In this document: piece by piece, positions 814 to 10,106 of the stretch
How the letters are laid out: each line of letters opens with the position of its first letter
Numbering within the stretch: position 1 is the stretch's first letter
DNA from: a virus
UHGV virus genome: UHGV-1716704
Strand: one strand, 5' to 3'
Length of the DNA: 10,454 nt
The notes under the pieces: model-generated
Database searches by the model: none
Seen by the model: the letters and a program-made list of their open reading frames with translations, nothing else
Told to the model about the DNA's origin: nothing
Program-made: the position numbers and the translations under genes

Positions 814-1236
814 ATGTTCCTGAAAACCGAATCATTTGAACATAACGGTGTGACCGTCACGCTTTCTGAACTGTCAGCCCTGCAGCGTATTGAGCATCTC
901 GCCCTGATGAAACGGCAGGCAGAACAGGCGGAGTCAGACAGCAACCGGAAGTTTACTGTGGAAGACGCCATCAGAACCGGCGCGTTTCTGGTGGCGATGT
1001 CCCTGTGGCATAACCATCCGCAGAAGACAAAGCAGCCTTCCATGAATGAAGCCGTTAAACAGATTGAGCAGGAAGTGCTTACCACCTGGCCCACAGAGGC
1101 AATTTCTCATGCTGAAAACGTGGTGTACCGGCTGTCTGGTATGTATGAGTTTGTGGTGAATAATGCCCCTGAACAGGCAGAGGACGCCGGGCCCGCAGAG
1201 CCTGTTTCTGCGGGAAAGTGTTCGACGGTGAGCTGA
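814..1236 (+). CDS. G: Tail assembly chaperone gpG, 140 aa
   Basis: ATG at 814 with GGAGAG at 802-807. Product MFLKTESFEHNGVTVTLSELSALQRIEHLALMKRQ... is recognised as lambda gpG. Stop TGA at 1234-1236. The slippery heptamer sits near its 3' end. Confidence 0.93.
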   Translation: MFLKTESFEHNGVTVTLSELSALQRIEHLALMKRQAEQAESDSNRKFTVEDAIRTGAFLVAMSLWHNHPQKTKQPSMNEAVKQIEQEVLTTWPTEAISHAENVVYRLSGMYEFVVNNAPEQAEDAGPAEPVSAGKCSTVS

Positions 1237-1652
1237 GTTTTGCCCTGAAACTGGCGCGTGAGATGGGGCGACCCGACTGGCGCGCCATGCTTGCCGGGAT
1301 GTCATCCACGGAGTATGCCGACTGGCACCGCTTTTACAGTACCCATTATTTTCATGATGTTCTGCTGGATATGCACTTTTCCGGGCTGACGTACACCGTG
1401 CTCAGCCTGTTTTTCAGCGATCCGGATATGCATCCGCTGGATTTCAGTCTGCTGAACCGGCGCGAGGCTGACGAAGAGCCTGAAGATGATGTGCTGATGC
1501 AGAAAGCGGCAGGGCTTGCCGGAGGTGTTCGCTTTGGCCCGGACGGGAATGAAGTTATCCCTACTTCCCCGGATGTGGCGGACATGACGGAGGATGACGC
1601 AATGCTGATGACAGTATCAGAAGGGATCGCAGGAGGAGTCCGGTATGGCTGA
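814..1652 (+). CDS. T: Tail assembly chaperone gpGT, a fusion made by programmed -1 ribosomal frameshift; G frame 814-1218, then T frame from 1218 to stop at 1650-1652; predicted 279 aa
   Basis: Heptamer G GGA AAG at 1212-1218 lies in the G frame, 5 codons before the G stop. The -1 frame is open from 1218 to 1652 and encodes VFDGELSFALKLAREMGRPDWRAMLAGMSSTEYADWHRFY..., recognised as the gpT moiety. This is the conserved G/GT frameshift architecture of long-tailed phages. The T frame has no start or RBS of its own. Confidence 0.88.
1212..1218 (+). promoter_or_regulatory. Slippery heptamer GGGAAAG, the -1 programmed frameshift site for G to GT
   Basis: Read directly: gggaaag at 1212-1218, with GGA and AAG as G-frame codons at 1213-1218. 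Shifting to GGG AAA places the next codon, GTG at 1218, in the T frame. Confidence 0.88.
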
Positions 1653-4206
1653 ACCGGTAGGCGATCTGGTCGTTGATTTGAGTCTGGATGCGGCCAGATT
1701 TGACGAGCAGATGGCCAGAGTCAGGCGTCATTTTTCCGGTACGGAAAGTGATGCGAAAAAAACAGCGGCAGTCGTTGAACAGTCGCTGAGCCGACAGGCG
1801 CTGGCTGCACAGAAAGCGGGGATTTCCGTCGGGCAGTATAAAGCTGCCATGCGTATGCTGCCTGCGCAGTTCACTGACGTGGCCACGCAGCTTGCAGGCG
1901 GGCAAAGTCCGTGGCTGATCCTGCTGCAACAGGGTGGTCAGGTTAAGGACTCCTTCGGCGGGATGATCCCCATGTTCAGGGGGCTTGCCGGTGCGATCAC
2001 CCTGCCGATGGTGGGGGCCACCTCGCTGGCGGTGGCGACCGGTGCGCTGGCGTATGCCTGGTATCAGGGCAACTCAACCCTGTCCGATTTCAACAAAACG
2101 CTGGTCCTTTCCGGTCATCAGTCGGGTCTGACGGCAGATCGTATGCTGGTCCTGTCCAGAGCCGGGCAGGCGGCAGGGCTGACGTTTAACCAGACCAGCG
2201 AGTCACTCAGCGCACTGGTTAAGGCGGGGGTAAGCGGTGAGGCTCAGATTGCGTCCATCAGCCAGAGTGTGGCGCGTTTCTCCTCTGCATCCGGCGTGGA
2301 GGTGGACAAGGTCGCTGAAGCCTTCGGGAAGCTGACCACAGACCCGACGTCGGGGCTGACGGCGATGGCACGCCAGTTCCATAACGTGACGGCGGAGCAG
2401 ATTGCGTATGTTGCTCAGTTGCAGCGTTCCGGCGATGAAGCCGGGGCATTGCAGGCGGCGAACGAGGCCGCAACGAAAGGGTTTGATGACCAGACCCGCC
2501 GCCTGAAAGAGAACATGGGCACGCTGGAGACCTGGGCAGACAGGACTGCGCGGGCATTCAAATCCATGTGGGATGCGGTGCTGGATATTGGTCGTCCTGA
2601 TACCGCGCAGGAGATGCTGATTAAGGCAGAGGCTGCGTTTAAGAAAGCAGACGACATCTGGAATCTGCGCAAGGATGATTATTTTGTTAACGATGAAGCG
2701 CGGGCGCGTTACTGGGATGATCGTGAAAAGGCCCGTCTTGCGCTTGAAGCCGCCCGAAAGAAGGCTGAGCAGCAGACTCAACAGGACAAAAATGCGCAGC
2801 AGCAGAGCGATACCGAAGCGTCACGGCTGAAATATACCGAAGAGGCGCAGAAGGCTTACGAACGGCTGCAGACGCCGCTGGAGAAATATACCGCCCGTCA
2901 GGAAGAACTGAACAAGGCACTGAAAGACGGGAAAATCCTGCAGGCGGATTACAACACGCTGATGGCGGCGGCGAAAAAGGATTATGAAGCGACGCTGAAA
3001 AAGCCGAAACAGTCCGGCGTGAAAGTGTCTGCGGGCGATCGTCAGGAAGACAGTGCTCATGCTGCCCTGCTGACGCTTCAGGCAGAACTCCGGACGCTGG
3101 AGAAGCATGCCGGAGCGAATGAGAAAATCAGCCAGCAGCGCCGGGATTTGTGGAAGGCTGAAAATCAGTTCGCGGTACTGGAGGAGGCGGCACAACGTCG
3201 CCAGCTATCCGCACAGGAGAAATCCCTGCTGGCGCATAAAGATGAGACGCTGGAGTACAAACGCCAGCTGGCTGCACTTGGCGACAAGGTTACGTATCAG
3301 GAGCGCCTGAACGCGCTGGCGCAGCAGGCGGATAAATTCGCACAGCAGCAACGGGCAAAACGGGCCGCCATTGATGCGAAAAACCGGGGGCTGACTGACC
3401 GGCAGGCAGCGCGGGAAGCCACAGAACAGCGCCTGAAGGAACAGTATGGCGATAATCCTCTGGCGCTGAATAACGTCATGTCAGAGCAGAAAAAGACCTG
3501 GGCGGCTGAAGACCAGCTTCGCGGGAGCTGGATGGCAGGCCTGAAGTCCGGCTGGAGTGAGTGGGAAGAGAGCGCCACGGACAGTATGTCGCAGGTAAAA
3601 AGTGCAGCCACGCAGACCTTTGATGGTATTGCGCAGAATATGGCGGCGATGCTGACCGGCAGTGAGCAGAACTGGCGCAGCTTCACCCGTTCCGTGCTGT
3701 CCATGATGACAGAAATTCTGCTTAAGCAGGCAATGGTGGGGATTGTCGGGAGTATCGGCAGCGCCATTGGCGGGGCTGTTGGTGGCGGCGCATCCGCGTC
3801 AGGCGGTACAGCCATTCAGGCCGCTGCGGCGAAATTCCATTTTGCAACCGGAGGATTTACGGGAACCGGCGGCAAATATGAGCCAGCGGGGATTGTTCAC
3901 CGTGGTGAATTTGTCTTCACGAAGGAGGCAACCAGCCGGATTGGCGTGGGAAATCTCTACCGGCTGATGCGCGGCTATGCCACCGGCGGTTATGTCGGTG
4001 GCACCGGAAGTCCGGCGCAAATGCGGCGTTCAGAGGGTATCAGGTTTGAGCAGAACAACAACGTGGTGATTCAGAACGACGGTACGAATGGTCTGCCAGG
4101 TCCACAGATGATGAAGGCAGTGTATGACATGGCCCGCAAGGGTGCCCGTGATGAAATTCAGGCACAGATGCGCGATGGTGGTCTGTTCTCCGGAGGTGGA
4201 CGATGA
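1645..4206 (+). CDS. H: Tail tape measure protein gpH, 853 aa
   Basis: ATG at 1645 with AGGAGGA at 1631-1637; overlaps the T-frame stop by 8 nt. The 853-aa product matches lambda gpH in length and is recognised from its sequence. It has a long central stretch rich in A/E/K/Q/R/L (coiled-coil type, about 2600-3500) and a Gly/Ala-rich hydrophobic segment near the C terminus (about 3700-3830). It sits directly after G/GT, as tape measure genes do. Confidence 0.95.
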   Translation: MAEPVGDLVVDLSLDAARFDEQMARVRRHFSGTESDAKKTAAVVEQSLSRQALAAQKAGISVGQYKAAMRMLPAQFTDVATQLAGGQSPWLILLQQGGQVKDSFGGMIPMFRGLAGAITLPMVGATSLAVATGALAYAWYQGNSTLSDFNKTLVLSGHQSGLTADRMLVLSRAGQAAGLTFNQTSESLSALVKAGVSGEAQIASISQSVARFSSASGVEVDKVAEAFGKLTTDPTSGLTAMARQFHNVTAEQIAYVAQLQRSGDEAGALQAANEAATKGFDDQTRRLKENMGTLETWADRTARAFKSMWDAVLDIGRPDTAQEMLIKAEAAFKKADDIWNLRKDDYFVNDEARARYWDDREKARLALEAARKKAEQQTQQDKNAQQQSDTEASRLKYTEEAQKAYERLQTPLEKYTARQEELNKALKDGKILQADYNTLMAAAKKDYEATLKKPKQSGVKVSAGDRQEDSAHAALLTLQAELRTLEKHAGANEKISQQRRDLWKAENQFAVLEEAAQRRQLSAQEKSLLAHKDETLEYKRQLAALGDKVTYQERLNALAQQADKFAQQQRAKRAAIDAKNRGLTDRQAAREATEQRLKEQYGDNPLALNNVMSEQKKTWAAEDQLRGSWMAGLKSGWSEWEESATDSMSQVKSAATQTFDGIAQNMAAMLTGSEQNWRSFTRSVLSMMTEILLKQAMVGIVGSIGSAIGGAVGGGASASGGTAIQAAAAKFHFATGGFTGTGGKYEPAGIVHRGEFVFTKEATSRIGVGNLYRLMRGYATGGYVGGTGSPAQMRRSEGIRFEQNNNVVIQNDGTNGLPGPQMMKAVYDMARKGARDEIQAQMRDGGLFSGGGR

Positions 4207-4532
4207 AGACCTTCCGCTGGAAAGTGAAACCCGGTATGGATGTGGCTTCGGCCCCTTCTGTAAGAAAGGTGCGCTTTGGTGATGGCTATTCCCAGCGAGC
4301 GCCTGCCGGGCTGAATGCCGACCTGAAAACGTACAGCGTGACGCTTTCTGTTCCCCGTTGGGAGGCCACGGCGCTGGAGTCGTTTCTGGCTGAGCACGGG
4401 GGCTGGAAAGCCTTTCTGTGGACGCCGCCTTATGAGTGGCGGCAGATAAAGGTGACCTGCGCAAAATGGTCGTCGCGGGTCAGTATGCTGCGTGTTGAGT
4501 TCAGCGCAGAGTTTGAACAGGTGGTGAACTGA
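4203..4532 (+). CDS. M: Minor tail (tail tip) protein gpM, 109 aa
   Basis: ATG at 4203 overlaps the H stop as ATGA at 4203-4206; GGAGGTGGA lies upstream at 4191-4199. Product MKTFRWKVKPGMDVASAPSVRKVRFGDGYSQRAP... is recognised as lambda gpM, with the same 109-aa length. Confidence 0.93.
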   Translation: MKTFRWKVKPGMDVASAPSVRKVRFGDGYSQRAPAGLNADLKTYSVTLSVPRWEATALESFLAEHGGWKAFLWTPPYEWRQIKVTCAKWSSRVSMLRVEFSAEFEQVVN

Positions 4533-5230
4533 TGCAGGATATCCGGCAGGAAACACTGAATGAATGCACCCGTGCGGAGCAGTCGGCCAGCGTGGTGCTC
4601 TGGGAAATCGACCTGACAGAGGTCGGTGGAGAACGTTATTTTTTCTGTAATGAGCAGAACGAAAAAGGTGAGCCGGTCACCTGGCAGGGGCGACAGTATC
4701 AGCCGTATCCCATTCAGGGGAGTGGTTTTGAACTGAATGGCAAAGGCACCAGTACGCGCCCCACACTGACGGTTTCTAACCTGTACGGTATGGTCACCGG
4801 GATGGCGGAAGATCTGCAGAGTCTGGTCGGCGGAACGGTGGTCCGGCGTAAGGTTTACGCCCGTTTTCTGGATGCGGTGAACTTCGTCAACGGAAACAGT
4901 GACGCCGATCCGGAGCAGGAGGTGATCAGCCGCTGGCGCATCGAGCAGTGCAGCGAACTGAGCGCGGTGAGTGCCTCTTTTGTACTGTCCACGCCGACGG
5001 AAACGGATGGCGCTGTTTTTCCGGGACGTATCATGCTGGCCAACACCTGCACCTGGACCTATCGCGGTGACGAGTGCGGTTATAGCGGTCCGGCTGTCGC
5101 GGATGAATATGACCAGCCAACGTCCGATATCACGAAGGATAAATGCAGCAAATGCCTGAGCGGTTGTAAGTTCCGCAATAACGTCGGCAACTTTGGCGGC
5201 TTCCTTTCCATTAACAAACTTTCGCAGTAA
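4532..5230 (+). CDS. L: Minor tail (tail tip) protein gpL, 232 aa, with C-terminal Cys cluster
   Basis: ATG at 4532 overlaps the M stop as TGATG. Product MQDIRQETLNECTRAEQSASVVLWEIDLTEVGGERYFFCNEQ... is recognised as lambda gpL, same 232-aa length. C-terminal cysteines fall in CTWTYRGDECGY and DKCSKCLSGCKF (nt about 5049-5171). Confidence 0.93.
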   Translation: MQDIRQETLNECTRAEQSASVVLWEIDLTEVGGERYFFCNEQNEKGEPVTWQGRQYQPYPIQGSGFELNGKGTSTRPTLTVSNLYGMVTGMAEDLQSLVGGTVVRRKVYARFLDAVNFVNGNSDADPEQEVISRWRIEQCSELSAVSASFVLSTPTETDGAVFPGRIMLANTCTWTYRGDECGYSGPAVADEYDQPTSDITKDKCSKCLSGCKFRNNVGNFGGFLSINKLSQ

Positions 5231-5235
5231 ATCCC

Positions 5236-5979
5236 ATGACACAGACAGAATCAGCGATTCTGGCGCACGCCCGGCGATGTGCGCCAGCGGAGTCGTGCGG
5301 CTTCGTGGTAAGCACGCCGGAGGGGGAAAGATATTTCCCCTGCGTGAATATCTCCGGTGAGCCGGAGGCGTATTTCCGTATGTCGCCGGAAGACTGGCTG
5401 CAGGCAGAAATGCAGGGTGAGATTGTGGCGCTGGTCCACAGCCACCCCGGTGGTCTGCCCTGGCTGAGTGAGGCCGACCGGCGGCTGCAGGTGCAGAGTG
5501 ATTTGCCGTGGTGGCTGGTCTGCCGGGGGACGATTCATAAGTTCCGCTGTGTGCCGCATCTCACCGGGCGGCGCTTTGAGCACGGTGTGACGGACTGTTA
5601 CACACTGTTCCGGGATGCTTATCATCTGGCGGGGATTGAGATGCCGGACTTTTATCGTGAGGATGACTGGTGGCGTCACGGCCAGAATCTCTATCTGGAT
5701 AATCTGGAGGCGACGGGGCTGTATCAGGTGCCGTTGTCAGCGGCACAGCCGGGCGATGTGCTGCTGTGCTGTTTTGGTTCATCAGTGCCGAATCACGCCG
5801 CAATTTACTGCGGCGACGGCGAGCTGCTGCACCATATTCCTGAACAACTGAGCAAACGAGAGAGGTACACCGACAAATGGCAGCGACGCACACACTCCCT
5901 CTGGCGTCACCGGGCATGGCACGCATCTGCCTTTACGGGGATTTACAACGATTTGGCCGCCGCATCGACCTTCGTGTGA
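5236..5979 (+). CDS. K: Tail tip assembly protein gpK, 247 aa as the full ORF: N-terminal JAB/MPN (JAMM) metallopeptidase domain and C-terminal NlpC/P60 domain. The in-frame Met at 5380 would give the 199-aa form.
   Basis: ORF begins 5 nt after the L stop. JAMM signature HSHPGGLPWLSEAD (H-x-H-x7-S-x2-D) is present; a candidate upstream Glu lies in PAESCGFV, within the N-terminal 48 codons. NlpC/P60-type Cys appears in GVTDCYTLFRDAYHLAG and His in NHAAIYCGDGELLHH. No strong SD precedes 5236, so translational coupling to L is assumed and the start is uncertain. Confidence 0.85.
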   Translation: MTQTESAILAHARRCAPAESCGFVVSTPEGERYFPCVNISGEPEAYFRMSPEDWLQAEMQGEIVALVHSHPGGLPWLSEADRRLQVQSDLPWWLVCRGTIHKFRCVPHLTGRRFEHGVTDCYTLFRDAYHLAGIEMPDFYREDDWWRHGQNLYLDNLEATGLYQVPLSAAQPGDVLLCCFGSSVPNHAAIYCGDGELLHHIPEQLSKRERYTDKWQRRTHSLWRHRAWHASAFTGIYNDLAAASTFV

Positions 5980-6548
5980 AAACGGGGGCTGAAGCCATCC
6001 GGGCACTGGCCACACAGCTCCCGGCGTTTCGTCAGAAACTGAGCGACGGCTGGTATCAGGTACGGATTGCCGGGCGGGACGTCAGCACGTCCGGGTTAAC
6101 GGCGCAGTTACATGAGACTCTGCCTGATGGCGCTGTGATTCATATTGTTCCCAGAGTCGCCGGGGCCAAGTCAGGTGGCGTATTCCAGATTGTCCTGGGG
6201 GCTGCCGCCATTGCCGGATCATTCTTTACCGCCGGAGCCACCCTTGCAGCATGGGGGGCAGCCATTGGGACCGGTGGTATGACCGGCATCCTGTTTTCTC
6301 TCGGTGCCAGTATGGTGCTCGGTGGTGTGGCGCAGATGCTGGCACCGAAAGCCAGAACTCCCCGTACACAGACAACGGATAACGGTAAGCAGAACACCTA
6401 TTTCTCCTCACTGGATAACATGGTTGCCCAGGGCAATGTTCTGCCTGTTCTGTACGGGGAAATGCGCGTGGGGTCTCGCGTGGTTTCTCAGGAGATCAGC
6501 ACGGCAGACGAAGGGGACGGTGGTCAGGTTGTGGTGATTGGTCGCTGA
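5877..6548 (+). CDS. I: Tail tip assembly protein gpI, 223 aa: N-terminal ubiquitin-like domain ending near a Gly-Gly, then a Gly/Ala-rich hydrophobic C-terminal region
   Basis: ATG at 5877 with GAGAGAGG at 5858-5865. Overlaps the 3' end of K by 103 nt in a different frame. Product MAATHTLPLASPGMARICLYGDLQRFGRRIDLRVKTGAEAIRALATQLP... is recognised as lambda gpI, same 223-aa length. Gly100-Gly101 are encoded at 6174-6179; the segment VFQIVLGAAAIAGSFFTAGATLAAWGAAIGTGGMTGILFSLGASMVLGGVAQ follows. Confidence 0.9.
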   Translation: MAATHTLPLASPGMARICLYGDLQRFGRRIDLRVKTGAEAIRALATQLPAFRQKLSDGWYQVRIAGRDVSTSGLTAQLHETLPDGAVIHIVPRVAGAKSGGVFQIVLGAAAIAGSFFTAGATLAAWGAAIGTGGMTGILFSLGASMVLGGVAQMLAPKARTPRTQTTDNGKQNTYFSSLDNMVAQGNVLPVLYGEMRVGSRVVSQEISTADEGDGGQVVVIGR

Positions 6549-6566
6549 TGCAAAATGTTTTATGTG

Positions 6567-6589
6567 AAACCGCCTGCGGGCGGTTTTGT
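6567..6589 (+). other. Small GC-rich hairpin in the I-J intergenic spacer (aaaccgcc-tgcg-ggcggttt, then tttg)
   Basis: Read directly: an inverted repeat with an 8-bp stem and 4-nt loop, followed by a short T-rich run, 20 nt after the I stop and about 25 nt before the J start. It could be an attenuating terminator or an RNA stability or processing element. Function is not established from sequence. Confidence 0.3.
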
Positions 6590-6608
6590 CATTTATGGAG
6601 CGTGAGGA

Positions 6609-9600
6609 ATGGGTAAAGGCAGCAGTAAGGGGCATACCCCGCGCGAAGCGAAGGACAACCTGAAGTCCACGCAGCTGCTGAGTGTGATCGATGCCATCAG
6701 CGAAGGGCCGGTTGAAGGTCCGGTGGATGGATTAAAAAGCGTGCTGCTGAACAGTACGCCGGTGCTGGACAGTGAGGGGAATACCAATATATCCGGCGTC
6801 ACGGTGGTGTTCCGGGCAGGTGAGCAGGAGCAGTCACCGCCGGAGGGATTTGAATCCTCCGGCTCCGAGACGGTGCTGGGTACGGAAGTGAAATATGACA
6901 CGCCGATCACCCGCACCATTACGTCTGCAAACATCGACCGTCTGCGCTTTACCTTCGGCGTGCAGGCACTGGTGGAAACCACCTCAAAGGGGGACCGGAA
7001 TCCGTCGGAAGTCCGCCTGCTGGTTCAGATCCAGCGTAATGGTGGCTGGGTGACGGAAAAAGACATCACCATTAAGGGCAAAACCACCTCGCAGTATCTG
7101 GCCTCGGTGGTGGTGGGTAACCTGCCGCCGCGCCCGTTCAATATACGGATGCGCAGGATGACGCCGGACAGCACCACAGACCAGCTGCAGAACAAAACGC
7201 TCTGGTCGTCATACACCGAAATCATCGATGTGAAACAGTGCTACCCGAACACGGCACTGGTCGGCGTGCAGGTGGACTCGGAACAGTTCGGCAGCCAGCA
7301 GGTGAGCCGTAATTATCATCTTCGCGGGCGCATTCTGCAGGTGCCGTCGAACTATAACCCGCAGACGCGGCAATACAGCGGTATCTGGGACGGAACGTTT
7401 AAGCCAGCATACAGCAACAACATGGCCTGGTGTCTGTGGGATATGCTGACCCATCCGCGCTACGGCATGGGGAAGCGTCTCGGTGCGGCGGATGTGGACA
7501 AATGGGCGCTGTATGTCATCGGCCAGAATTGCGACCAGTCGGTGCCGGATGGCTTTGGTGGCACGGAGCCGCGCATCACCTGTAATGCCTACCTGACCAC
7601 ACAGCGCAAGGCGTGGGATGTGCTCAGTGATTTCTGCTCGGCGATGCGCTGTATGCCGGTATGGAACGGGCAGACGCTGACGTTCGTGCAGGACCGACCA
7701 TCAGATAAGGTGTGGACCTATAACCGCAGTAATGTGGTGATGCCGGATGATGGCGCGCCGTTCCGCTACAGCTTCAGCGCCCTGAAGGACCGCCATAATG
7801 CCGTTGAGGTGAACTGGATTGACCCGGATAACGGCTGGGAGACGGCGACAGAGCTTGTGGAGGACACGCAGGCCATTGCCCGTTACGGTCGTAACGTCAC
7901 GAAGATGGATGCCTTTGGCTGTACCAGTCGGGGGCAGGCACACCGCGCCGGGCTGTGGCTGATTAAAACGGAGCTGCTGGAAACGCAGACCGTGGACTTC
8001 AGCGTGGGCGCAGAAGGGCTTCGTCATGTACCGGGCGATGTCATTGAAATCTGCGATGATGACTATGCGGGTATCAGTACCGGCGGGCGCGTGCTGGCGG
8101 TGAACAGCCAGGCGCGGACACTGACGCTCGACCGTGAAATCATGCTGCCATCCTCCGCCACCACGCTGATAAGCCTGGTTGACGGAAGTGGCAATCCGGT
8201 CAGCGTGGAGGTTCAGTCCGTCACCGACGGCGTGAAGGTAAAAGTGAGCCGTGTTCCTGACGGTGTTGCTGAATACAGCGTATGGGGGCTGAAGCTGCCG
8301 ACGCTGCGCCAGCGACTGTTCCGCTGCGTGAGTATCCGTGAGAACGACGACGGCACGTATGCCATCACCGCCGTGCAGCATGTACCGGAAAAAGAAGCCA
8401 TCGTGGATAACGGGGCGCACTTTGACGGCGACCAGAGCGGCACGGTGAATGGTGTCACGCCGCCAGCGGTGCAGCACCTGACCGCAGAAGTCACTGCAGA
8501 CAGCGGGGAATATCAGGTGCTGGCGCGATGGGACACACCGAAGGTGGTGAAGGGCGTGAGCTTCCTGCTTCGCCTGACCGTGGCAGCGGATGACGGCAGT
8601 GAGCGGCTGGTCAGCACGGCCCGGACGACGGAAACCACATACCGCTTCACGCAACTGGCGCTGGGAAACTACAGGCTGACAGTCCGGGCGGCAAATGCCT
8701 GGGGGCAGCAGGGCGATCCGGCATCGGTATCGTTCCGTATTGCCGCACCGGCAGCGCCGTCGCGGATTGAGCTGACGCCGGGCTATTTTCAGATAACCGC
8801 CACGCCCCATCTTGCCGTTTATGATCCGACGGTACAGTTTGAGTTCTGGTTCTCGGAAAAGCGGATTGCGGATATCAGGCAGGTTGAAACCACAGCCCGC
8901 TATCTTGGCACGGCGCTGTACTGGATAGCCGCCAGTATCAATATCAAACCGGGCCATGATTATTATTTTTACATCCGCAGTGTGAACACCGTTGGCAAAT
9001 CGGCATTTGTGGAGGCTGTTGGCCAGCCGAGTGATGATGCATCCGGCTATCTGGATTTTTTCAAAGGCGAGATAGGGAAAACCCATCTGGCTCAGGAGCT
9101 GTGGACGCAGATTGATAACGGTCAGCTTGCGCCTGACCTGGCTGAAATCAGGACGTCCATTACGGATGTCAGCAATGAAATCACGCAGACCGTCAATAAG
9201 AAACTGGAAGACCAGAGTGCAGCGATCCAGCAGATACAGAAGGTTCAGGTTGATACAAATAATAACCTGAACAGCATGTGGGCTGTGAAGCTGCAGCAGA
9301 TGCAGGACGGACGCCTTTATATCGCGGGTATTGGTGCCGGTATTGAGAACACCCCTGACGGCATGCAGAGTCAGGTGCTGCTGGCGGCGGACAGGATTGC
9401 GATGGTTAATCCTGCGAATGGCAACACAAAGCCGATGTTTGTTGGTCAGGGCGATCAGATATTCATGAATGAAGTGTTCCTGAAACGCCTGACGGCTCCC
9501 ACCATTACCAGCGGCGGTAATCCTCCGGCATTTTCCCTGACACCGGACGGAAAACTGACCGCTAAAAATGCAGATATCAGTGGCAGTGTGAATGCGAACG

Positions 9601-10106
9601 CCGGGACGCTCAACAATGTCACGGTAAATGAAAACTGTACGATTAAGGGCATGCTGGAGGCGACTCAGGTCAGAGGTGACTTCGTTAAAGCTGTATCCAA
9701 ATCATTCCCGAAACAGGCTGGTACGTGGGGTAATACGGAAACACCAAACGGGACGGTTACAGTCACCATCAGCGATGATCATAACTTTGACCGTCAAATC
9801 ATTATTCCGCCCATTATCTTTAACGGAATAGCGTATAGCGATCCGGGAAGTGGTAATAACCCGGGAGGTACAAGATACACGGGTTATGGTTTTGAAGTTC
9901 GCAAAAACGGCGTATTAATCGCATCCAGAGAAACTAAAGGGGCCATTCCCGGTAGTTACAGTGCAGTTATTGATATGCCGAGTGGCAGGGGAAGCGTCAC
10001 TCTGGAGTTTAAGATTTTCCAGAAAGGCAATCAGGGGGCAGGCAATATCACCGACTGTACGGTGATTGTGACCAAAAAAGCCGCTTCCGGCATCAGTATT
10101 CGTTGA
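6609..10106 (+). CDS. J: Central tail fibre / host specificity protein gpJ, 1165 aa
   Basis: ATG at 6609 with GGAG at 6597-6600. N terminus [34 protein letters not shown]... and most of the body are recognised as lambda-type J. Central fibronectin-III-like region (about 8380-9000) and a C-terminal receptor-binding region. Length differs from the 1132 aa I recall for lambda J. Stop TGA at 10104-10106. Confidence 0.95.

What the first reader, a model, noticed from the sequence alone, without database searches (positions are those of the whole stretch)
5236..6548. Ubiquitin-like protein (I) plus JAB/NlpC-P60 two-domain peptidase (K), with a 103-nt out-of-frame overlap
K carries a JAMM metallopeptidase motif and an NlpC/P60-like Cys/His region. 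I has an N-terminal beta-grasp-like region ending near Gly100-Gly101 (nt 6174-6179), followed by a hydrophobic Gly/Ala-rich tail. The two genes overlap at 5877-5979 in different frames. Published comparative genomics has proposed this pairing as a phage ubiquitin-like processing system at the tail tip; the motifs are all intact here. It is a known association, not a new one, but the mechanism is little studied experimentally.
Basis: partly seen in the sequence, partly recalled or inferred. Interest (0 to 1): 0.45.

Follow-up and report, generated by a model that had tools for sequence, protein, structure and literature searches.

The report
Phage lambda tail genes K and I

Summary
ORFs 5236-5979 (247 aa) and 5877-6548 (223 aa) overlap by 103 nt in different frames. 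The region is 99.3-99.8% identical to phage lambda and close relatives: these are lambda genes K and I.

K contains a JAB/JAMM domain and an NlpC/P60 domain, supported by Pfam, by a structure model, and by catalytic residues that are invariant in relatives. I residues 14-92 model confidently as a ThiS/MoaD/SAMP-type beta-grasp. Two hydrophobic helices and the C-terminal region follow; published cryo-EM shows that C-terminal part as the trimeric plug inside the tail tip.

The literature already covers the mechanism. It was predicted in 2006. [quoted passage not shown] An F-pyocin homologue loses the same domain.

Refinements:
- The family-conserved glycine is G96 (G96-A97), not G100-G101.
- The 103-nt overlap is specific to the lambda clade; distant relatives have 0-4 nt.
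- The I start at 5877 is supported.
- The window carries a G (5370) missing from the reference lambda record, which is why K is annotated there as only 199 aa.

Verdict: already known, low interest.

The parts
5236..5979 (+). Gene K (tail tip assembly protein K), 247 aa, full-length form. It starts 5 nt after the stop codon of L.
   Evidence: ORF list. Pfam Prok-JAB plus NLPC_P60. 99% identity to lambda. Homologues of 247 aa with thousands of members.
5242..5547 (+). JAB/MPN+ (JAMM) metallopeptidase domain of K, aa 3-104. Glu19 is at 5290-5292. The motif H68-S-H70-x7-S78-x2-D81 is at 5437-5478.
   Evidence: Pfam PF14464, E 6e-14. Motif located. E19, H68, H70, S78 and D81 are invariant in relatives of 31-44% identity. 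Fold matches to PfJAMM1, Rpn11 and CSN5. PDB sequence hit 2kks.
5566..5907 (+). NlpC/P60 (C40, papain-like) peptidase domain of K, aa 111-224. Cys121 is at 5596-5598, His187 at 5794-5796, and His199 at 5830-5832.
   Evidence: Pfam PF00877, E 1e-12. D120-C121, N186-H187 and H199-H200 are invariant in distant relatives. Fold matches to MepS/Spr, LytE and Acd autolysins.
5911..5976 (+). C-terminal extension of K, about 20 aa (aa 226-247), specific to the lambda clade. It is overprinted on the start of the I beta-grasp coding sequence.
   Evidence: Distant K homologues end 4-6 residues after the invariant R224. The extension is modelled as a helix at 235-246 with low pLDDT of 58-71.
5877..5979 (+). 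The 103-nt out-of-frame overlap of K and I. I is in the -1 frame relative to K.
   Evidence: The same overlap is annotated in lambda (14773-14875) and in BP-4795. It is absent from distant relatives. No slippery heptamer is present.
5862..5865 (+). Shine-Dalgarno-like GAGG, 11 nt upstream of the I start codon and inside K.
   Evidence: Read from the sequence. Annotated as a ribosome binding site in lambda imm21 record OM418625. Conserved in BP-4795-type phages.
5877..6548 (+). Gene I (tail tip assembly protein I / tip plug protein), 223 aa.
   Evidence: ORF list. Pfam Lambda_tail_I. PDB 8iyk chain I, E 9e-141.
5877..5915 (+). 13-aa N-terminal extension of I, specific to the lambda clade. Distant homologues start at the equivalent of M14.
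   Evidence: Distant homologues align from query residues 14-17. The ATG at 5877 is kept in BP-4795 and Stx2a phages, where M14 is CTG-Leu.
5916..6167 (+). Ubiquitin-like (ThiS/MoaD/SAMP-type) beta-grasp domain of I, aa 14-97. It ends in the conserved P92-x-x-x-G96-A97 tail (G96-A97 at 6162-6167).
   Evidence: AF2 pLDDT 93-98 for aa 14-92. Foldseek matches to SAMP1, CysO, MoaD, ubiquitin and SUMO. P92 in 54/54, G96 in 52/54, A/S97 in 50/54. hhalign register to MoaD G80-G81 (weak).
6174..6179 (+). It is only partly conserved in the family. It marks the first residue (101) modelled in the closed-state cryo-EM structure.
   Evidence: position. (G100 in 27/54, G101 in 43/54). PMC11101478.
6174..6341 (+). 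Gly/Ala-rich hydrophobic region of I, aa 100-155. Two predicted helices (H1, H2) lie in the tip lumen; others have proposed that they insert into the outer membrane.
   Evidence: AF2 helices at 100-129 and 136-155. Hydropathy and composition. G108, G143 and G150 are invariant. Cryo-EM papers.
6351..6545 (+). C-terminal plug and beta-strand region of I, aa 159-223. As a trimer it closes the tail tip, holds the C-terminus of gpH, and augments beta-sheets of gpJ.
   Evidence: Published structures 8IYK, 8K35, 8XCG and 9E7M. Near-invariant F176, N181, G186, P190, G194, G199 and S204.
5370..5370 (+). A G that is absent from the reference lambda records J02459 and NC_001416. With it, K reads through as 247 aa with a complete JAB domain. 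Without it, K is annotated as 199 aa starting at M49.
   Evidence: Pairwise comparison and alignment. Annotation. The G-less 23-mer occurs only in the NC_001416 locus among 99 loci; the G-containing 24-mer occurs in 39.

Best explanation
The segment holds the phage lambda tail-tip assembly genes K and I.

gpI is made as a precursor with three parts:
- an N-terminal ubiquitin-like beta-grasp domain (aa 14-97);
- two hydrophobic Gly/Ala-rich helices;
- a C-terminal plug domain.

gpK is a non-structural enzyme with an N-terminal JAMM (deubiquitinase-type, zinc) peptidase domain and a C-terminal NlpC/P60 cysteine peptidase domain.

During assembly of the tip (gpJ, gpL, gpI), the C-terminal tail of the ubiquitin-like domain is presented to the JAMM site of gpK. 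gpK cuts the ubiquitin-like domain away once gpI is seated in the tip complex. This works as an assembly checkpoint. [quoted passage not shown]

Shown here: gene identity, domain folds, conservation of catalytic residues, and conservation of the tail motif.
Taken from the literature: the cleavage itself, its timing, and the location of the gpI C-terminal part.
Inferred by me: the scissile bond lies at or next to G96-A97, not necessarily at G100-G101. The 103-nt overlap arose in the lambda clade when K gained a C-terminal extension and I gained an upstream start with its own ribosome binding site.
For: Identity to lambda K and I.

Domains and folds:
- Pfam domains.
- The AF2 beta-grasp in I has SAMP1, CysO, MoaD and ubiquitin as best structural matches.
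- The AF2 K model matches the PfJAMM1-SAMP2 complex, Rpn11 and CSN5, as well as NlpC/P60 hydrolases.
- The JAMM residues E19, H68, H70, S78, D81 and the NlpC/P60 residues C121, H187, H199 are invariant at 31-44% identity.
- P92-x3-G96-[A/S] is conserved in 50-54 of 54 diverse homologues.

Literature:
- Prediction of the processing in PMC1779556.
- gpK is not detected in virions by mass spectrometry (PMC10721106) and is not resolved in the Ur-lambda structure (PMC12617516). gpI is resolved only from residue 134/135, or from 101 in the closed state (PMC11101478).
- The single gpI peptide found by virion mass spectrometry gives 9.87% coverage. That equals exactly the C-terminal tryptic peptide 202-223.
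[quoted passage not shown] Deleting the gpK homologue PA0639 gives tubes without tips.
Against: - The cleavage site and the responsible domain are therefore not documented in detail.
- Cryo-EM alone cannot tell a cleaved N-terminal domain from a disordered one.
- The mass-spectrometry inference rests on a single peptide.
- The role of the equally conserved NlpC/P60 domain is unexplained.
Confidence: 0.85

Rival explanations
1. gpI is not processed. Its ubiquitin-like domain stays attached but is flexible and invisible by cryo-EM, perhaps with its own role at infection. gpK acts only as a chaperone.
For: The N-terminal domain is described only as 'unresolved' or 'unseen'. [quoted passage not shown]
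Against: - The domain is a beta-grasp, not a hydrolase fold.
- The peptidase residues of K are invariant.
- Only the C-terminal peptide of gpI was found in virion mass spectrometry.
- Cleavage has been reported for lambda, and loss of the domain has been shown for the F-pyocin homologue.
Confidence: 0.06
2. gpK is mainly a virion-associated cell-wall hydrolase. Its NlpC/P60 domain would cut peptidoglycan during DNA injection, and the pairing with I would be incidental.
For: The best fold matches of the C-terminal domain are cell-wall endopeptidases such as MepS, LytE and Acd autolysins. Many database entries name it 'cell wall-associated NlpC family hydrolase'.
Against: - gpK is not detected in virions by mass spectrometry and not resolved in the Ur-lambda structure.
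- The F-pyocin homologue is also absent from mature particles.
- K mutants are blocked in tail-tip assembly, not in injection. This is established lambda genetics and is mirrored by the PA0639 deletion.
- The JAB domain is fused to the NlpC/P60 domain and conserved alongside it.
Confidence: 0.05
3. The -1-frame overlap serves a programmed ribosomal frameshift that makes a K-I fusion protein, as with lambda G-T.
For: I lies in the -1 frame relative to K. Databases contain K-I fusion proteins such as P0148, P0201 and P0131. Iyer et al. mention a fused prophage version.
Against: - There is no X XXY YYZ heptamer anywhere in the overlap.
- The fusion proteins are single-member clusters, each with a different junction, as expected from indel errors or decayed prophages.
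- I has its own GAGG and ATG, conserved even where the internal Met is lost.
- Distant relatives have no overlap to shift in.
Confidence: 0.02
4. [quoted passage not shown]
For: The fold and the C-terminal glycine motif resemble MoaD, SAMP and CysO.
Against: - No E1-like adenylating enzyme is encoded among the tail genes V to J in the window.
- The domain is N-terminal to the part of the protein that is retained. Cleavage therefore releases it rather than attaching it.
- No extra density or conjugate is reported in the tail structures.
Confidence: 0.02

Closest known systems
Phage lambda gpK (tail tip assembly protein K) and gpI (tail tip assembly protein I); PDB 8IYK, 8K35, 8XCG and 9E7M for gpI
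   Same: The DNA is 99.3-99.4% identical. The gene order is the same (H-M-L-K-I-J). The 103-nt overlap is the same (lambda 14773-14875). gpI differs at 2 residues from the PDB sequence.
   Different: The window has the G at 5370 that the reference record lacks, so K reads as 247 aa rather than 199 aa. The neighbouring J is 1165 aa rather than 1132 aa. The best overall match is phiSTEC1575-Stx2k, not lambda itself.
TAPI/TAPK system of Iyer, Burroughs and Aravind 2006 (PMC1779556)
   Same: This is exactly that system: a ubiquitin-like TAPI flanked by a JAB plus NlpC/P60 TAPK and by J, with predicted JAB cleavage at the C-terminal glycine of the ubiquitin-like domain.
   Different: [quoted passage not shown] Later cryo-EM shows that its C-terminal part is incorporated.
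Pseudomonas aeruginosa F-type pyocin PA0639 (gpK-like) and PA0640 (tip plug, gpI-like)
   Same: Only the C-terminal part of the plug protein is present in mature particles. The N-terminal region is removed as an assembly checkpoint. The K homologue is required for the tip and is absent from particles. PDB chains of about 200 aa named 'putative tail assembly protein' match I at E 1e-18 to 1e-21.
   Different: It is a tailocin rather than a phage. Its sequences are distant, and the protease was not identified in that preprint.
Archaeal and bacterial JAMM peptidases acting on ThiS/MoaD-type ubiquitin-like proteins (PfJAMM1/HvJAMM1 with SAMPs; Mycobacterium tuberculosis Mec+ with CysO)
   Same: The same pairing of folds: the I domain best matches SAMP1, CysO and MoaD, and the K N-terminal domain best matches PfJAMM1, including its SAMP2 complex.
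   Different: Those enzymes remove small ubiquitin-like proteins from conjugates or cleave a cysteine adduct. Here the ubiquitin-like domain is cut from its own polypeptide in a virus assembly line, there is no E1, and the peptidase carries an extra NlpC/P60 domain.
Plug domain of phage T5 baseplate hub protein pb3
   Same: A trimeric plug closes the tip lumen at the same position, with a hydrophobic segment proposed to insert into the outer membrane (PMC10721106).
   Different: In T5 the plug is an insertion within the hub protein itself. It has no separate gene, no ubiquitin-like domain and no K-type peptidase.

Membership tests
Phage lambda genes K and I (orthologues by identity) | Near-identical sequence and conserved position between L and J in the tail module | tested here: met
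   99.3-99.8% DNA identity over 1601 nt with the order L-K-I-J. gpI matches PDB 8iyk_I at E 9e-141.
JAB/MPN+ (JAMM) metallopeptidases | The E...HxHx7Sx2D zinc-binding and catalytic motif | tested here: met
   E19 and H68-S-H70-x7-S78-x2-D81 are present. All are invariant in homologues of 31-44% identity.
JAB/MPN+ (JAMM) metallopeptidases | MPN fold | tested here: met
   Pfam Prok-JAB, 52 bits against a cut-off of 25. The AF2 model matches PfJAMM1 (TMt 0.63), Rpn11 and CSN5.
JAB/MPN+ (JAMM) metallopeptidases | Zinc-dependent (iso)peptidase activity at the C-terminus of a ubiquitin-like domain | not testable with these tools
   Known only from the literature: reported for gpK acting on gpI in a conference summary (PMC12908700).
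NlpC/P60 (C40) papain-like peptidases | Catalytic Cys at a helix N-terminus, plus His and a third polar residue | tested here: met
   D120-C121, H187 and H199/H200 are invariant. C121 lies at the start of helix 121-131 in the model.
NlpC/P60 (C40) papain-like peptidases | NlpC/P60 fold | tested here: met
   Pfam NLPC_P60, 48 bits against a cut-off of 23. Foldseek matches to MepS, LytE and Acd autolysins, TMt 0.5-0.64.
NlpC/P60 (C40) papain-like peptidases | A known substrate (peptidoglycan stem peptide or other) | not testable with these tools
   The substrate of this domain in gpK is unknown. gpK is absent from virions.
Ubiquitin-like beta-grasp, ThiS/MoaD/SAMP branch (Pfam Lambda_tail_I, TAPI) | Beta-grasp fold | tested here: met
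   AF2 gives the element order strand 14-19, helix 21-26, strand 29-33, helices 37-47 and 49-56, strand 60-64, helix 74-78, strand 87-92, with pLDDT 93-98. Best PDB matches are SAMP1 (E 9e-5), CysO and MoaD (TMt 0.76), then ubiquitin and SUMO.
Ubiquitin-like beta-grasp, ThiS/MoaD/SAMP branch (Pfam Lambda_tail_I, TAPI) | Conserved glycine in the flexible tail that follows the last strand | tested here: met
   G96 in 52/54 and A/S97 in 50/54, four residues after the invariant P92. The register to MoaD G80-G81 comes from hhalign and is weak. The GG at 100-101 is only partly conserved (27/54 and 43/54).
Ubiquitin-like beta-grasp, ThiS/MoaD/SAMP branch (Pfam Lambda_tail_I, TAPI) | Activation by an E1-like adenylating enzyme, or conjugation or sulfur transfer | tested here: not met
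   No E1-like gene lies among the tail genes of the window. This is a structural relative processed by a JAMM peptidase, not a member of a conjugation or sulfur-carrier pathway.

The most novel reading that the evidence does not exclude
The NlpC/P60 domain of gpK is as strictly conserved as the JAMM domain but has no assigned substrate. It may be a second processing protease of the tail. [quoted passage not shown] Alternatively it may make a second cut in the Gly/Ala-rich linker of gpI. Nothing found here excludes either possibility, and nothing found here supports either directly.
Probability: 0.1. Interest if true: 0.5.

Novelty: already known. Interest (0 to 1): 0.12.

Why it matters
The window itself adds nothing new: these are textbook lambda genes. 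The K-I pairing was described in 2006, and the cleavage has now been reported experimentally.

The system matters in general for two reasons. It is a virus-encoded ubiquitin-like domain and deubiquitinase pair used as an assembly checkpoint. It also bears on the prokaryotic origins of ubiquitin signalling.

Three practical by-products came out of this check:
- The reference lambda annotation of K (199 aa) truncates the JAB domain because of one missing G.
- The most likely cleavage motif is G96-A97 rather than the lambda-specific GG at 100-101.
- The long K/I overlap is a recent feature of the lambda clade, not a property of the system.

Tried and rejected
1. Programmed -1 frameshift from K into I. 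Rejected: there is no slippery heptamer in the overlap, and the database K-I fusions are singletons with different junctions.
2. An I start at M14 (nt 5916), which many automatic annotations use (P0012, 210 aa) and which matches the N-terminus of distant homologues. Rejected for the lambda clade: BP-4795 and Stx2a phages have CTG-Leu at that position but keep the upstream ATG and the GGAGAGG.
3. Collecting diverse K-I loci from IMG/VR. The lambda I query returned only 99-100% identical prophages. The diverse alignment had no usable conserved stretch. Three distant queries gave only 9 loci, which were not analysed. I switched to tblastn against annotated phages and fetched eight representative regions.
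4. A literature search for a published note on the missing G in J02459. Nothing relevant was found.
5. P0288, a 2783-aa protein with 23 weak I-like stretches. The Pfam scan gave only incoherent hits with no significant stretch, so I treated it as repetitive or low-complexity sequence and dropped it.
6. The simple terminator scan did not flag the hairpin between I and J. Direct folding shows it.
Full report
**Observation.** The window is a lambda-type tail module. The gene order is V, G, T, H (1645-4206), M (4203-4532), L (4532-5230), K (5236-5979), I (5877-6548) and J (6609-10106). The two ORFs of the finding are at the stated coordinates, with lengths of 247 aa and 223 aa. They overlap by 103 nt (5877-5979), and I lies in the -1 frame relative to K. 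The JAMM motif H68-S-H70-x7-S78-x2-D81 is present, and Gly100-Gly101 of I sits at nt 6174-6179. Pfam assigns Prok-JAB (aa 3-104) and NLPC_P60 (aa 111-224) to K, Lambda_tail_I (aa 14-97) to I, and Phage_tail_L and Phage_min_tail to the two upstream genes. All are well above the curated cut-offs.

**Identity.** Positions 5100-6700 are 99.8% identical to Escherichia phage phiSTEC1575-Stx2k and 99.3-99.4% identical to phage lambda and its laboratory derivatives. In NC_001416, K is annotated at 14276-14875 and I at 14773-15444, which gives the same 103-nt overlap. The I protein matches the lambda gpI chains of PDB 8IYK, 8IYL, 8K35, 8XCG and 9E7M. The finding is therefore lambda K and I themselves.

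**One difference from the reference record.**
- The window has a G at 5370 (GGCGTAT) that J02459 and NC_001416 lack (GGC-TAT).
- With the G, K reads from the ATG 5 nt after the stop of L and gives 247 aa, with the whole JAB domain including Glu19.
- Without it, the reference annotation starts K at Met49 (199 aa) and loses the first third of the JAB domain.
- Most other lambda records match over 1601 nt rather than 1600, so they carry the G.
- Among the 99 loci fetched, the G-less 23-mer occurs only in the NC_001416 locus, while the G-containing 24-mer occurs in 39.
- Clusters of 247-aa K homologues have thousands of members.

**Folds.**
- I was modelled with an alignment of 54 diverse homologues of 34-60% identity. 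The AlphaFold2 model gives pLDDT 93-98 for residues 14-92. The order of elements is strand 14-19, helix 21-26, strand 29-33, helices 37-47 and 49-56, strand 60-64, helix 74-78, strand 87-92. Two long helices follow (100-129 and 136-155) at lower confidence, and two strands lie at 206-222.
- Foldseek against the PDB returns SAMP1 (E 9e-5, TMt 0.70), CysO, MoaD (TMt 0.76) and Urm1, then ubiquitin and SUMO. This is a ThiS/MoaD-type beta-grasp.
- The K model (pLDDT 84, pTM 0.71) matches NlpC/P60 hydrolases (MepS, LytE, Clostridioides autolysins). It also matches JAMM enzymes: PfJAMM1 alone and bound to SAMP2, Rpn11 and CSN5.
- In an alignment with K proteins of phages from Klebsiella, Serratia, Burkholderia and the HK97 group (31-44% identity), both catalytic sets are invariant: E19, H68, H70, S78, D81 and also C121, H187, H199, H200. 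Both domains therefore look like active enzymes.

**The glycine.**
- In the 54-sequence alignment, P92 is invariant. G96 is present in 52 of 54 sequences and position 97 is Ala or Ser in 50 of 54. G100 is present in only 27 and G101 in 43.
- The family motif is thus P-x-x-x-G-[A/S]. This has the spacing of the PPVxGG end of MoaD and SAMPs.
- A profile comparison with E. coli MoaD aligns G96-A97 with G80-G81, but the match is weak (E 0.017, 19 columns).
- I infer that the conserved glycine noted by Iyer et al. is G96, and that the scissile bond is at or next to G96-A97.
- The lambda di-glycine at 100-101 remains possible. The closed-state cryo-EM model of gpI begins at residue 101 (PMC11101478), and that fits either site.

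**The overlap.**
- Distant I homologues begin at the equivalent of lambda M14.
- Distant K proteins end 4-6 residues after the invariant R224.
- In those phages the K-I junction is a 1-nt overlap (Klebsiella K50PH164C1), a 1-nt gap (Serratia Rovert), a 4-nt overlap (Burkholderia vB_E253), or a separate small ORF plus a terminator (HK633, HK97 type).
- In the lambda, BP-4795 and Stx-phage clade, K has a C-terminal extension of about 20 aa and I has a 13-aa N-terminal extension. Together these create the 103-nt overlap.
- The upstream ATG at 5877 is the real start in this clade. It is preceded by GAGG (5862-5865). It is retained in BP-4795 and an Stx2a phage, where the M14 codon is CTG.
- There is no slippery heptamer in the overlap.
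- The K-I fusion proteins in the databases are single-member clusters with different junctions, as expected from indels.
- The overlap is real, conserved within the clade and specific to it. It is not a frameshift device.

**What is already known.**
- Iyer, Burroughs and Aravind (2006) described exactly this pairing. They predicted that the JAB domain of TAPK releases the ubiquitin-like domain of TAPI at its C-terminal glycine (PMC1779556).
- Cryo-EM of lambda shows a gpI trimer (residues 134/135-223, or 101-223 in one closed-state model) as the plug in the tip lumen. It holds the C-terminal helices of gpH and augments sheets of gpJ. The N-terminal domain is never seen.
- gpK is not detected in virions by mass spectrometry and is not resolved in the Ur-lambda structure.
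- The published virion mass-spectrometry table lists one gpI peptide with 9.87% coverage. The only tryptic peptide of that size is 202-223. None of the several well-behaved peptides of the ubiquitin-like domain was seen. This is weak evidence but consistent with removal of the domain.
[quoted passage not shown] The report adds that this happens only after gpI has engaged other tip proteins (PMC12908700).
- An F-pyocin preprint covers the homologues. The N-terminal region of PA0640 is absent from mature particles but present in stalled assembly mutants. Deletion of the gpK homologue PA0639 gives tubes without tips, and PA0639 is not in particles.

**Mechanism.** Most likely, gpI is a precursor whose ubiquitin-like domain acts as a removable assembly module. 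gpK docks on it, its JAMM site cuts the tail after the beta-grasp once gpI is seated with gpJ and gpL, and gpK and the released domain then leave. The retained part of gpI plugs the tip and anchors gpH. The gene identities, folds and conservation are shown here. The cleavage and its timing come from the literature. The exact bond and the evolutionary origin of the overlap are my inference. The function of the NlpC/P60 domain remains open. A role as a virion cell-wall hydrolase is unlikely because gpK is not in particles.

**Verdict.** It is phage lambda itself, and the mechanism is no longer merely hypothetical. Novelty: already known. Interest: low.

Noticed in passing
window 5370 (lambda 14266/14267): The reference lambda records J02459 and NC_001416 lack one G that is present here and in most other lambda and lambdoid records. 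This is why K is annotated there as 199 aa, from Met49, with a truncated JAB domain. It is likely an error or stock-specific change in the 1982 sequence.
   Followed up: partly
window 6567-6594: A GC-rich hairpin (AAACCGCC-UGCG-GGCGGUUU) followed by UGUCAUUU lies in the 60-nt gap between I and J. The 65-nt stretch around it (6546-6610) folds at -21 kcal/mol, z -2.7. HK633 has an annotated rho-independent terminator at the same place. The simple terminator scan did not list it.
   Followed up: partly
window 6609-10106: J is 1165 aa here against 1132 aa in lambda. The best match of the K-I region is an Stx2k-converting phage rather than lambda, so the receptor-binding end of J probably differs from that of lambda.
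   Followed up: no
L099 (HK633) 1215-1479: In HK97/HK022-type phages a small extra ORF (gp20) and an annotated terminator sit between the K and I homologues. The two genes are neither overlapping nor adjacent there.
   Followed up: no
proteins P0148, P0201, P0131, P0008, P0013, P0014, P0234 (database hits): Many E. coli assemblies contain K-I fusion ORFs. I is in the -1 frame, so any single-base indel in the overlap fuses the two genes. Every junction is different and each cluster has one member, so these are artefacts or decayed prophages.
   Followed up: yes
protein P0288 (2783 aa): A giant protein with 23 weak matches to residues 10-63 of I. The Pfam scan gave only incoherent hits without significant stretches, so it is probably repetitive or low-complexity sequence.
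   Followed up: partly
window 814-1652: The G ORF (814-1236) and the overlapping T-frame ORF (1218-1652) upstream of H have the arrangement of the classical lambda G-T -1 frameshift. I did not examine them.
   Followed up: no
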